The notes: a model not told the origin generated them from the sequence alone. A stretch of 64,000 nucleotides of DNA from Candidatus Poribacteria bacterium (GCA_965218285.1 OZ244616.1:5960270-6024269), one strand, 5' to 3'; counted from the first letter of the stretch, positions 6,650 to 8,851 are shown. Program-made: numbers and translations.

Positions 6650-6676
6650 AGGATGGGGTCTCCAGCCCGAAGAGTG

Positions 6677-8851
6677 ATGAGAAAACGAAAACAGCAATCA
6701 GCTGAAGTTGACCAAAAGACACAGACTCAAAACGTAAGAGTCTATGAATTAGCGAAACACCACGGATTAAGTAGCAAAGAGTTAATCAACATACTTGAAG
6801 GATTAGGCGTTTCCATAAAAAACCACATGAGTACTTTGGATCCTGATACAATCATGTTAGTTGAATCCGAATTGAATCCTCAGCAAAAAATAAGTTTAGA
6901 TGAAGAAAAAGATGCCGATATAAAACCCAATCAAGAAAAAGAGGTTAATGTAATAGTAGAAGCAAAAAAAGAAACGCCTAAAGATGCACCTAAAGAAACG
7001 CCTAAAGATGCACCTAAAGAAACGCCTAAAGATGCACCTAAAGAAACGCCTAAAGATGCACCTAAAGAAACGCCTAAAGATGCACCTAAAGAAACGCCTA
7101 AAGATGCACCTATGCAAGTGCAGGAAGGGATAACTGTTGGCACCTTAGCAGCAATGCTGAATTTGCAATCAACCCAATTGATTATGCAATTAATGAAATT
7201 AAAGGTGATGGCAACGATTAACCAGAGTTTAGACTATCAAACCTTGTTGGTCTTAGCGGACAAGTTCGGTTTTGAAGCTGTCCGGAAAAAAACACTTGAA
7301 GAAAAACTTTTATCTGATGAGGAAGACCCCCCTGAATCCTTGGTAGCACGTGCCCCCGTTATCACGATTATGGGTCACGTTGACCATGGGAAAACCTCAC
7401 TTTTAGATTCTATCCGTCAGTCAAACGTGAGTGAATCCGAGGCGGGAAATATCACACAACATATAGGCGCATATCATGTTGAATTAGAAAATGGGACCAT
7501 TGTTTTTCTTGATACACCCGGACACGCTGCATTTACTGCAATGCGGGCACGTGGTGCACAGGCAACAGATATCGTTGTTCTAATTGTTGCCGCAGATGAT
7601 GGCGTTATGCCGCAGACAATTGAAGCAATTAACCATGCCAAAGCAGCAAAAGTACCTATTGTTGTCGCAATAAACAAAATTGATGTCCCAGGTGCACGTC
7701 AAGACTATGTTAAACAGCAGCTGGTTGACAACGACTTAGTCCCAGAAGAGTGGGCTGGTCAAACTATCTGCGTAGAGATATCCGCAATAGAAGGCACCGG
7801 AATAGAGTTGTTGCTGGAAATGCTACTCCTTGAAGCTGCCCTATTGGAATTAAAAGCGAACCCGAATAAATCTGCCCGTGGTGTTGTTATTGAGGCACAG
7901 GTAGATAAAGGTCGCGGGGCAATTGCGACCGTTTTAGTGCAAAGTGGCACCTTGAAGGTCGGCGATACATTTGTCTCTGGTCGTTACTCCGGCAGAGTTA
8001 GGGCGATGATGAGTGATGACGGCAGACGAATCAAGGAAGCCGCACCCTCTACACCTGTGGAAGTACTCGGATTTACAGGGGTACCGGAAGCAGGCGACCT
8101 GTTTTTTGTTATCGACTCCGAAAAGGATGCTCGCACTATAAGCAGTGAACGGCAAGATAAATACCGTATCTCTAAACTTGGTGCACATAGCCACGTTAGT
8201 CTTGATGACCTATTCCAACAGATCCAAGAAGGTGAAATCAAGGAATTGAACGTCATTATTAAAGGCGATGTGCAGGGTTCTGTACAAGCCATAACAGAAT
8301 CTTTGCTAAAATTGAGCACACTGGAAGTGAAGATAAATATTATCCATGAAGCCACTGGCGGTATCACAGAGACAGATATTCTGCTTGCCTCAGCATCTGA
8401 TGCTATCGTTGTTGGGTTCAACGTTCACCCCACCACAGAAGCGGTCAAAGCTACGGAAATAGAAGGGATTGATGTCCGCACCTATAAGGTTATTTATGAC
8501 ATCATTTCTGATATCCGATCCGCAATGGAAGGGCTGTTAGATCCAGAGGTCCGAGAAGTCATTATTGGTCGAGCTGAAGTGCGGGAAATCTTTAATGCAC
8601 CGCGCGTCGGGTTAATCGCTGGAAGTTATGTCAACTGGGGCAAGATTACGGTTAACCAACCCCTCCGTGTGCTGCGCGATAACCGAATGATTTACGAAGG
8701 CAAGGTTAATTCGCTGAGACGTTTTAAAGACAATGTCAACGAAGTGCAAGCCAATTATGAATGTGGTATCGGTATTGACGAGTTAAACGACATAAAAATT
8801 GGGGATGTGTTGGAATGTTACGTCCACGAACAAGTGGCGCGCACGCTTTAG
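6677..8851 (+). CDS. infB: Translation initiation factor IF-2
   Basis: VRVYELAK N-terminal motif, GTPase motifs ([21 protein letters not shown]), conserved C-terminal domains. The track ORF start (6653, MGSPARRV) lies in the IsrB right end; ATG 6677 is preferred. Confidence 0.95.
6968..7111 (+). repeat. Perfect 24-bp x 6 tandem repeat inside infB (KETPKDAP x 6)
   Basis: Unit gaaacgcctaaagatgcacctaaa recurs at 6971, 6995, 7019, 7043, 7067 and 7091 with no mismatch seen. Confidence 0.9.

What the first reader, a model, noticed from the sequence alone, without database searches (positions are those of the whole stretch)
6660..6685. All three IsrB-type elements abut TGATGA on the right side, at stop/start junctions: candidate target/TAM motif and inferred guide
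The sequence after the conserved right end is gag|TGATGAgaa (copy 1), gag|TGATGAaca (copy 2, minus strand at 33655-33660) and gattt|TGATGAatg (copy 3). In each case the ATG inside TGATGA is the best start codon of the downstream gene: infB, the 33158..33658 membrane protein, and the 51573 ORF.

If TGATGA is flank rather than element, excising copy 1 restores ...atc gtc agg TGA TGA..., a classic ylxR-stop/infB-start overlap. If it were element sequence, ylxR would instead read in frame into infB, which is implausible. So the element seems to home to TGATG-type gene junctions.

In IscB/IsrB systems the guide sits at the 5' end of the omega RNA. The left flank (for example ggagataatcgtcagg in copy 1) followed by a TGA-containing motif would then re-create the empty site as the target. 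A short TGA-containing TAM for a characterised IsrB is my recollection only and needs checking.
Basis: inference. Interest (0 to 1): 0.6.

Follow-up and report, generated by a model that had tools for sequence, protein, structure and literature searches.

The report
IsrB transposons insert before ATGA

Summary
The hexamer TGATGA does follow all three elements in the window, far beyond chance. It is not one unit, though.

**Boundaries.** Empty sites come from a 98%-identical relative, four more distant relatives, five reciprocal sites and contigs of other sponge metagenomes. They all show that the inserted DNA runs from G-TCAATAAC to the G of "TG". Only ATGA is flank.

**Genome-wide.** Of 109 right ends, 105 are followed by ATGA (three by GTGA, one by ATGG). 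The preceding T is present in only 90.

**What the elements are.** They are non-autonomous IS200/IS605-superfamily ISC/IsrB transposons of Candidatus Poribacteria:
- a HEARO-type omega RNA that starts at the first base of the element;
- a 342-aa HNH-less IsrB (PDB 8DMB relative, E 2e-32);
- hairpins near both ends and no target duplication.

About 70 copies are gene-less minis.

**Known precedents.** The N|ATGA target with 5'-GT termini was published by Kapitonov et al. (2016). NTGA is the published IsrB TAM.

Guide from the left flank plus a TGA-containing TAM on the right holds in outline. The motif and the restored ylxR/infB junction were wrong: the real empty allele is an ATGA stop/start overlap.

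**Start codons.** 43% of copies sit exactly on start codons. An element-borne GGAG plus hairpin may rebuild the ribosome site; this is untested.

This scan has noted the family before, elsewhere in the same genome.

The parts
5281..6676 (+). Copy 1: full-length ISC/IsrB element (1396 nt including a nested 131-nt MITE), between ylxR and infB
   Evidence: Contigs of two other sponge metagenome runs join 5279 to 6676 with 1-nt ambiguity, which equals skipping 5281..6676. Family termini G-TCAATAAC ... GAAGAGT-G.
5261..5280 (+). Left flank of copy 1 (end of ylxR): inferred source of the omega RNA guide (length assumed to be about 20 nt)
   Evidence: The HEARO/omega scaffold starts at the element's first base. 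Published IscB/IsrB guides lie 5' of the scaffold, outside the transposon. The role here is inferred.
5281..5492 (+). Omega RNA (HEARO-type) scaffold of copy 1
   Evidence: In the intact copy L036, RF02033 aligns over model positions 1-211, from the element's first G to the IsrB ATG: 30.7 bits, E 1.4e-4, below the gathering score of 83. Copy 1 is homologous over this stretch.
5490..6649 (+). isrB gene of copy 1, split by the MITE into ORFs 5490..5666 and 5786..6649
   Evidence: ORF list. Intact 342-aa versions match Pfam RRXRR PF14239 (E 5e-28) and DtIsrB 8DMB (E 2e-32) and have no HNH domain.
5655..5785 (.). Nested 131-nt MITE that breaks isrB of copy 1
   Evidence: Contigs join 5654 to 5786 with 9 shared letters. 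Other copies lie at 58362-58484 and 61713-61833.
6624..6676 (+). Right end of copy 1 (the left end, LE, in the transposase's strand sense): GGAG, a two-tier hairpin 6628-6669, then AAGAGTG
   Evidence: RNAalifold on 28 diverse right ends gives 13 pairs, 5 of them with compensatory changes, including the outer stem CGGGCW/WGCCCG. Single-sequence folds agree.
6677..6680 (+). ATGA: target site and inferred TAM of copy 1. The ATG is the infB start; in the empty allele the TGA is the ylxR stop.
   Evidence: Empty sites and the genome-wide logo.
33659..34923 (-). Copy 2: full-length element (1265 nt) with isrB frameshifted (longest ORF 222 aa)
   Evidence: The relative G019 is continuous from window 33658 to 34924. 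ORF check.
33655..33658 (-). ATGA target/TAM of copy 2: start codon of the 166-aa ORF 33658..33158
   Evidence: The empty allele in G019 reads gtaaa|ATGGAcataattt.
51164..51572 (+). Copy 3: 409-nt gene-less mini element (omega RNA scaffold plus right end)
   Evidence: The empty allele in G019 reads ttgat|ATGAATgtctc. It matches family positions 9-196 and 1219-1270.
51573..51576 (+). ATGA target/TAM of copy 3: start codon of a 131-aa ORF

Best explanation
The three elements belong to one family of about 110 non-autonomous IS200/IS605-superfamily transposons of the ISC/IsrB (OMEGA) type in a Candidatus Poribacteria genome.

**Structure (shown).**
- Each element runs from 5'-GTCAATAAC... to ...GAAG-linker-G-3'.
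- It starts with a HEARO-type omega RNA scaffold.
- Full-length copies then encode a 342-aa HNH-less IsrB nickase.
- It ends in an imperfect hairpin like the one near its left end.

**Insertion (shown).** Copies insert without target duplication immediately 5' of ATGA (N|ATGA). The sites are polymorphic between close relatives.

**Mechanism (inferred from published family mechanisms).**
- A Y1 transposase (TnpA) supplied in trans cuts the complementary strand after 5'-TCAT-3', excises the element as single-stranded DNA and re-inserts it 3' of another TCAT.
- Host transcription entering from the left makes an omega RNA whose 5' guide is the left flank.
- IsrB with this RNA recognises the empty site (left flank followed by the TAM ATGA, a case of NTGA) and nicks it.
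- Repair from a filled sister copy then restores the element.
- Mini copies that keep only the omega RNA and the ends use IsrB and TnpA in trans.

**Start codons.** ATGA contains ATG, and insertions inside genes are purged. Surviving copies therefore pile up on start codons, co-oriented with the gene.
For: **Copies and termini.** 99 left ends and 110 right ends were found. The left G is present in 96/96 anchored copies, the G before ATGA in 109/109, and ATGA itself in 105/109.

**Empty sites.**
- G019 is empty at the sites of copies 2 and 3.
- Five sites filled in G019 are empty in this genome, three with exactly contiguous flanks.
- ylxR/infB is empty in four more distant relatives.
- Contigs of two other sponge metagenome runs join 5279 to 6676.

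**Protein.** Pfam RRXRR (E 5e-28), DtIsrB 8DMB (E 2e-32 over residues 3-316), no HNH match. 20 of 26 full-length copies are intact.

**RNA.** RF02033 HEARO is covered over its full model length from the first base of the element.

**Hairpins.** Both ends carry CCCCAAsCTAAAGsATGGGG-type hairpins, with compensatory changes across 28 Poribacteria copies.

**Wider family.** 289 related IsrB loci were found. In 30 of the 80 loci kept, from several Poribacteria genomes, a right end of this type could be parsed; each ends in G followed by ATGA or GTGA.

**Literature.**
- N|ATGA target with 5'-GT termini, shown by empty sites (PMC4810608).
- IsrB TAM NTGA/NTG (PMC9581776).
- TAM equals the TnpA target; the guide lies outside the transposon end; TAM TTCAT, the reverse complement of ATGAA, for an IscB element.

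**Candidate transposase.** One IS200-type tnpA lies at G000:582016-582369. Its upstream region resembles the family's hairpin end: local alignment score 45, against 26 +/- 3.3 for shuffles (maximum 42).

**Selection.** Only 10 of 93 restored sites lie inside genes, against 73% of all ATGA sites.
Against: - No tnpA lies next to any copy, and no right end matching the family was found beside the candidate tnpA.
- The HEARO score is below Rfam's gathering score (30.7 against 83 bits).
- The TAM of this particular IsrB and its nicking activity were not measured.
- The TAM-reading residues (R323 and Q326 of DtIsrB) were not mapped, because the sequence alignment stops at residue 316.
- No replication-strand bias of the kind reported for IS608-type elements was seen (48 against 51), though GC skew is weak in this genome.
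- Three of eight empty alleles read ATGG or ATAA rather than ATGA, so the ancestral target at those sites is inferred.
Confidence: 0.87

Rival explanations
1. One reading: the whole hexamer TGATGA is host flank and is the target/TAM, and the element ends at ...GAAGAG.
For: TGATGA follows all three window copies and 90 of 109 right ends genome-wide. The hexamer is somewhat over-represented in the window: 70 against 49.5 expected.
Against: - Empty alleles have no TG: gtaaa|ATGGA, ttgat|ATGAA, ttaaa|ATGAA, caagt|ATGAC.
- The metagenome joint 5279 to 6676 removes T6675 and, within its 1-nt ambiguity, one G.
- 19 copies have A, not T, before GATGA, and many Poribacteria copies end ...ATTAG|ATGA or ...ATTAG|GTGA.
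Confidence: 0.03
2. The motif is entirely element sequence (a conserved terminal TGATGA), and insertion has no sequence-specific target.
For: The motif is as conserved as the element ends, and no target duplication marks a boundary.
Against: ATGA, or a one-base variant of it, is present at the empty sites before any insertion. The ATG is the conserved start codon of infB in relatives without the element.
Confidence: 0.02
3. The family spreads mainly or only by IsrB-nick-triggered homing and recombination, not by a Y1 transposase. ATGA would then be only a nuclease TAM and not a transposase target.
For: No tnpA is linked to any copy. Only one clear IS200-type tnpA and one further Y1 gene exist among about 110 elements. 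Twenty isrB genes are intact.
Against: - Homing needs a guide that matches the new site, so it cannot seed the roughly 100 unrelated flanks seen here.
- The hairpins near both ends, the absence of duplication and the insertion next to a 4-nt motif are the hallmarks of Y1 transposition.
- Minis without isrB are the majority of copies.
- The same TAM/target coincidence was shown experimentally for ISGst elements.
Confidence: 0.06

Closest known systems
ISC transposons with the N|ATGA target (for example ISC1-1_MA of Microcystis aeruginosa and ISC2-1_MS of Marinobacter; Kapitonov, Makarova and Koonin 2016, PMC4810608)
   Same: Non-autonomous IS200/IS605-superfamily elements that encode only an IscB-family protein. 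The 5' terminus is GT(CA) and the 3' terminus ends in G. They carry imperfect hairpins near both ends, make no target duplication, and insert exactly 5' of ATGA, as shown by comparing filled and empty orthologous sites.
   Different: The host phylum (Poribacteria) and the copy number (about 110, two thirds of them gene-less minis). The 3' linker differs (AGTG, ATTTTG or ATTAG rather than CG). The protein is the HNH-less form. The start-codon bias was quantified here.
DtIsrB-omega RNA of Desulfovirgula thermocuniculi (PDB 8DMB; Hirano et al. 2022, PMC9581776) and the cyanobacterial CwIsrB and DsIsrB
   Same: An HNH-less RuvC nickase of about 350 aa with a PLMP N-terminus (E 2e-32 to 8DMB). A large 5' omega RNA with the guide at its 5' end. 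Published TAM NTGA (ATGA cut, ATGG not) or NTG, which fits the ATGA flank found here.
   Different: The TAM and activity of the Poribacteria enzyme are inferred, not measured. The omega RNA scaffold upstream of the ORF is about 212 nt here, against 284 nt in total for the DtIsrB omega RNA.
ISGst5 (IscB) of Geobacillus stearothermophilus and the guide-RNA-assisted retention model (Meers et al. 2023, bioRxiv 10.1101/2023.03.14.532601)
   Same: The guide lies outside the transposon end, so host read-through transcription is needed and elements are co-oriented with the upstream gene. The transposase target and the nuclease TAM are the same motif. ISGst5's TAM TTCAT is the reverse complement of ATGAA, and 74 of 109 copies here have A after ATGA.
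   Different: ISGst5 encodes IscB with an HNH domain, which makes double-strand cuts. Here the enzyme is a nickase, and no cognate TnpA has been shown.
PATEs and stand-alone omega RNA loci (gene-less IS200/IS605 derivatives)
   Same: Copy 3 and about 70 other copies keep only the omega RNA scaffold and the two ends.
   Different: None of note. Earlier notes of this scan describe them on other windows of this genome.

Membership tests
ISC/IsrB (OMEGA) non-autonomous transposon of the IS200/IS605 superfamily | Encodes an IscB-family protein with a PLMP/RRXRR N-terminus and a split RuvC domain, lacks HNH, and is about 350 aa long | tested here: met
   342 aa. Pfam PF14239 RRXRR E 5e-28; no other family was reported at E up to 0.01. 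DtIsrB 8DMB E 2e-32 over residues 3-316.
ISC/IsrB (OMEGA) non-autonomous transposon of the IS200/IS605 superfamily | An omega RNA (HEARO) scaffold directly upstream of the ORF, beginning at the transposon end | tested here: met
   RF02033 is aligned over model positions 1-211, from the element's first base to the isrB ATG: E 1.4e-4, 30.7 bits. This is below the curated 83 bits, so the feature is met on position and coverage, not on Rfam's own threshold.
ISC/IsrB (OMEGA) non-autonomous transposon of the IS200/IS605 superfamily | Imperfect hairpins near both ends, no terminal inverted repeats, no target-site duplication | tested here: met
   Hairpins lie near both ends, with compensatory changes. 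Comparing filled and empty sites shows no duplicated bases.
ISC/IsrB (OMEGA) non-autonomous transposon of the IS200/IS605 superfamily | Insertion next to a fixed 4-5 nt target (here N|ATGA, TCAT on the transposase's strand) | tested here: met
   105 of 109 right ends are followed by ATGA. Thirteen comparisons of filled and empty sites agree.
ISC/IsrB (OMEGA) non-autonomous transposon of the IS200/IS605 superfamily | Mobilised by a Y1 (HUH) TnpA transposase | not testable with these tools
   Three Y1_Tnp hits exist in the genome and none is linked to a copy. One has an upstream region similar to the family's hairpin end, score 45 against a shuffle maximum of 42. Recent mobility is shown by sites that differ between G000 and G019.
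ISC/IsrB (OMEGA) non-autonomous transposon of the IS200/IS605 superfamily | RNA-guided nicking of a target that matches the flank-derived guide and is followed by the TAM | not testable with these tools
   Inferred from homology and from the match of ATGA to the published NTGA/NTG TAMs.
   TG is absent from every empty site, and the T varies among copies.

The most novel reading that the evidence does not exclude
The family may be adapted to land between a gene's Shine-Dalgarno sequence and its ATG without silencing the gene.

- The element's last 55 nt carry a conserved GGAG.
- Directly after it comes a covarying two-tier hairpin.
- Then come 7-9 unpaired bases and the host ATG.

In the read-through transcript the folded hairpin would bring GGAG to normal ribosome-binding distance of the start codon. 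This would be a split Shine-Dalgarno, as I recall it being described for phage T4 genes 38 and 25.

Such an arrangement would let copies occupy start codons, including that of the essential infB. It would also guarantee host-promoter transcription of the guide, the omega RNA and isrB.
Probability: 0.25. Interest if true: 0.6.

Novelty: new member of a known kind. Interest (0 to 1): 0.3.

Why it matters
**Annotation.** The result fixes the exact boundaries, target and likely TAM of a very abundant IsrB/omega RNA family in Poribacteria. This gives a correct basis for annotating about 110 loci and for choosing guide and TAM in any assay with the 20 intact nickase genes.

**Method.** A conserved motif next to a repeat cannot be split into element and flank without empty sites.

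**Scope.** The biology itself (N|ATGA target, NTGA TAM, flank-derived guide) is published, so this is confirmation in a new phylum and not a discovery.

**Open question.** Forty genes, among them infB, tolerate an element between their ribosome-binding site and start codon. How they stay translated is not known. The GGAG-plus-hairpin arrangement offers a directly testable answer.

Tried and rejected
- **Rfam at gathering thresholds** on the whole window found nothing. The HEARO match appears only at the E-value threshold.
- **My first fuzzy-regex census of ends** was too loose or too strict and was dropped. BLAST-anchored ends were used instead.
- **Element ends beside the three Y1 transposase genes:** BLAST found none. 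Local alignment found only a modest match to one end upstream of one tnpA and no match to the other end.
- **tnpA next to the related IsrB loci kept (1200-nt flanks; 80 of 289):** found in one locus only (L105). There the element is simply inserted on the tnpA start codon, on the opposite transposon strand, so the two do not form one unit.
- **Replication-strand bias expected for IS608-like elements:** 48 co-oriented against 51 anti-oriented. GC skew is weak, so this is uninformative.
- **Start-codon enrichment against stricter nulls:**
  - 43% observed against 5.3% of all ATGA sites.
  - Among sites outside gene interiors, 48% observed against 19% for ATGA, 21% for D-ATGAA and 32% for D-ATGAAA (D = any base but C).
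  - Most of the effect therefore follows from the motif plus purifying selection. Only a 1.5 to 2.5-fold excess remains.
- **Weinberg et al. 2009** (the original HEARO description) could not be read here. My memory that it already noted insertion before ATGA or GTGA is unverified.
- **RNA runs were available only as contigs,** so neither transcription nor omega RNA 5' ends could be read.

Full report
**Observation.** The three copies are real.
- Copy 1 lies between ylxR and infB and carries a nested short repeat.
- Copy 2 lies on the minus strand.
- Copy 3 is a 409-nt gene-less derivative.

TGATGA follows the conserved right end in all three, at 6675-6680, 33655-33660 (minus strand) and 51571-51576. 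The window holds 70 such hexamers in 128,000 strand positions, so three exact abutments are not chance.

**Census.** The window is G000:C1:5960270-6024269 of a single-contig genome of 6.07 Mb with 43% G+C. BLAST with copy 2 finds 99 left ends and 110 right ends:
- 26 full-length copies (about 1260 nt);
- about 70 minis of 180-540 nt, which keep the first 90-234 nt and the last 50-65 nt.

The base before TCAATAAC is G in 96 of 96 anchored copies. The base before that is never C.

After ...CCAGCCCGAAG comes a linker that differs between subfamilies: AGTG in 61 copies, ATTTTG in 27, ATTAG in 14, and others. It always ends in G. Then comes ATGA (A 106, T 109, G 109, A 108 of 109), followed by A in 74 of 109.

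**Where the element ends.** Conservation alone cannot separate element from target, so I looked for empty sites.

1. *Closest relative, copies 2 and 3.* G019 is 98% identical in ylxR and is a Candidatus Poribacteria genome (OZ250160.1). It lacks copies 2 and 3. Its sequence reads gtaaa|ATGGAcataattt and ttgat|ATGAATgtctc, where this genome has gtaaa-G[TCAAT...GAGT]G-ATGAAcataattt and tatgat-G[TCAAT...ATTTT]G-ATGAATgtctc.
2. *Reciprocal sites.* Five sites filled in G019 are empty here. At three of them the flanks are exactly contiguous once the insert is taken as G...G and the flank as starting at ATGA.
3. *More distant relatives.* Four of them have ylxR/infB empty and read atcgcc-g|ATGAgaaaaa.
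4. *Other metagenomes.* Contigs from two other sponge metagenome runs join window 5279 to 6676 with a one-base ambiguity. That equals deletion of 5281..6676 and gives ...atcgtcag|ATGAgaaaac.

In that empty allele ylxR ends gtc aga tga, and its TGA overlaps the infB ATG. The junction is therefore a stop/start overlap, but of the ATGA type. In every case both terminal Gs and the T are inserted DNA, and only ATGA pre-exists. Nothing is duplicated.

**Identity.**
- *Protein.* Intact copies encode a 342-aa protein that matches Pfam RRXRR (PF14239, E 5e-28) and nothing else. It matches the solved IsrB of Desulfovirgula thermocuniculi (8DMB, E 2e-32, residues 3-316) more strongly than any IscB. It is an HNH-less IsrB.
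- *Intact copies.* Twenty of 26 full-length copies are intact. Both window copies are broken, copy 1 by the nested repeat and copy 2 by a frameshift.
- *RNA.* The first 212 nt align to the whole HEARO model RF02033. The alignment starts at the terminal G (model consensus GUCAacuaCCCC) and ends at the isrB ATG. The E-value is 1.4e-4, and the score of 30.7 bits is below the curated 83.
- *Hairpins.* Both ends carry similar imperfect hairpins (CCCCAAsCTAAAGsATGGGG). Across 28 diverse right ends the inner and outer stems show compensatory changes.
- *Wider family.* Related IsrB loci number 289 in the genome collection. The 80 best are nearly all titled Poribacteria. In the 30 where a right end of this type could be parsed, it ends in G followed by ATGA or, less often, GTGA.

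**Comparison with the literature.**
- Kapitonov, Makarova and Koonin (2016) described ISC transposons with 5'-GTCA and ...CGATGA-3' ends. Using empty orthologous sites, they showed that GT is element and ATGA is target, 'N|ATGA' (PMC4810608).
- Hirano et al. (2022) report the TAM NTGA for DtIsrB: ATGA and TTGA are cut, ATGG and TTGG are not. They report NTG for four other IsrBs (PMC9581776).
- Meers et al. (2023) show three things for IscB elements. The guide is encoded outside the transposon end next to the scaffold. Transcription must therefore enter from the host, and elements are co-oriented with the upstream gene. The transposase and the nuclease use the same adjacent motif, which for ISGst5 is TTCAT, the reverse complement of ATGAA.

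The Poribacteria family fits all three descriptions. The guide-plus-TAM logic holds, with ATGA in place of TGATGA.

**Mechanism.**
- *Shown:* structure, boundaries, target, absence of duplication, and presence/absence differences between close relatives.
- *Inferred:* a Y1 transposase acts in trans on the strand complementary to isrB, cutting after TCAT. IsrB, loaded with an omega RNA whose guide is the left flank, nicks the empty site and so favours re-copying of the element.

The genome has three Y1_Tnp hits and none lies next to a copy. One is an IS200-type gene at 582016-582369. About 90 nt upstream of it lies a stretch that aligns to the family's hairpin end (score 45; shuffles 26 +/- 3.3, maximum 42). 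This makes it a candidate partner, no more.

**Start codons.** After removing the elements in silico, 40 of 93 sites have the ATG as the start, or within 100 nt of the first in-frame start, of an ORF of at least 100 codons. Only 5.3% of all ATGA sites do (p 2e-26). Only 10 of 93 sites lie inside genes, against 73% expected.

Among sites outside gene interiors the start fraction is 48%. The corresponding nulls are 19% for ATGA, 21% for D-ATGAA and 32% for D-ATGAAA (D = any base but C). Most of the bias thus follows from a target that contains ATG plus purging of insertions inside genes. A 1.5 to 2.5-fold excess remains. It fits the need for host transcription of the guide.

A looser tally with ORFs of at least 80 codons found 17 further copies within 60 nt upstream of a co-oriented start. 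True stop/start overlaps are few, about 4 of 93.

**An open point.** In these 40 cases the element separates the gene's own Shine-Dalgarno sequence, visible in many left flanks, from its ATG. Yet infB is essential, and the insertion there is shared with G019.

The element's right end reads GGAG, then a 42-nt two-tier hairpin with a covarying outer stem, then 7-9 unpaired bases, then the host ATG. A split ribosome-binding site is a reasonable idea, but it is untested. GGAG also lies in the last codons of isrB, so coding constraint could explain its conservation.

**Verdict.** The object is a new, very abundant member of a known kind. Earlier notes of this scan on other windows of the same genome reached the same family assignment, and one also remarked on start-codon insertion. 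I re-derived both here independently.

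Noticed in passing
window 5655-5785; also 58362-58484, 61713-61833, partial 8934-8984 and 54592-54642: A short repeat (MITE-like) of about 120-131 nt is nested in isrB of copy 1. 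Contigs of other runs carry the same isrB stretch without it (joint 5654 to 5786 with 9 shared letters, perhaps a 9-bp duplication). Those contigs may come from other copies of the element.
   Followed up: partly
genome-wide left flanks: The host base immediately 5' of the element is never C (A 55, G 26, T 15, C 0 of 96). This could be a cleavage or guide-end constraint, or simply the usual context before start codons.
   Followed up: no
empty alleles: L013 (G019), G000:C1 near 3949572 and 810019: Three of eight empty alleles in the sister species read ATGG or ATAA where the filled allele has ATGA. DtIsrB does not cut ATGG, so these could be TAM-escape alleles, or simply drift.
   Followed up: no
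window 5279-5281 against L015 (G019) and run X4: The left junction of the shared ylxR/infB copy differs by one base between close relatives (gtcag|G here, gtcg|G in G019). One metagenome contig joins at 5278 instead of 5279.
   Followed up: partly
L105:2170-2670: In another Poribacteria genome an IsrB element ends exactly on the ATGA start codon of an IS200-type tnpA. That tnpA is 66% identical to the one at G000:582016-582369. So the family also lands on the start codon of a transposase gene.
   Followed up: partly
window 17549-17797 (G000:C1:5977818-5978066): A weak Y1_Tnp match (31.6 bits) lies inside a 215-aa open frame. The 840 nt beginning about 1.5 kb upstream of it (L040 1-841) recur about 15 times in the genome at 96-100% identity. 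This is probably a different mobile element.
   Followed up: no
L039 1-1355 (G000:C1:4173421-4174775): Next to the second Y1 gene, a 483-aa ORF is built of a long tandem array with a 48-nt period: self-matches shift by multiples of 48 nt at 99% identity.
   Followed up: no
G000:C1:4620334-4620730 against L016 (G019): A site that holds a full-length IsrB element in G019 has about 400 nt of other sequence between the same flanks in this genome. It could be a diverged mini element or a replacement.
   Followed up: no
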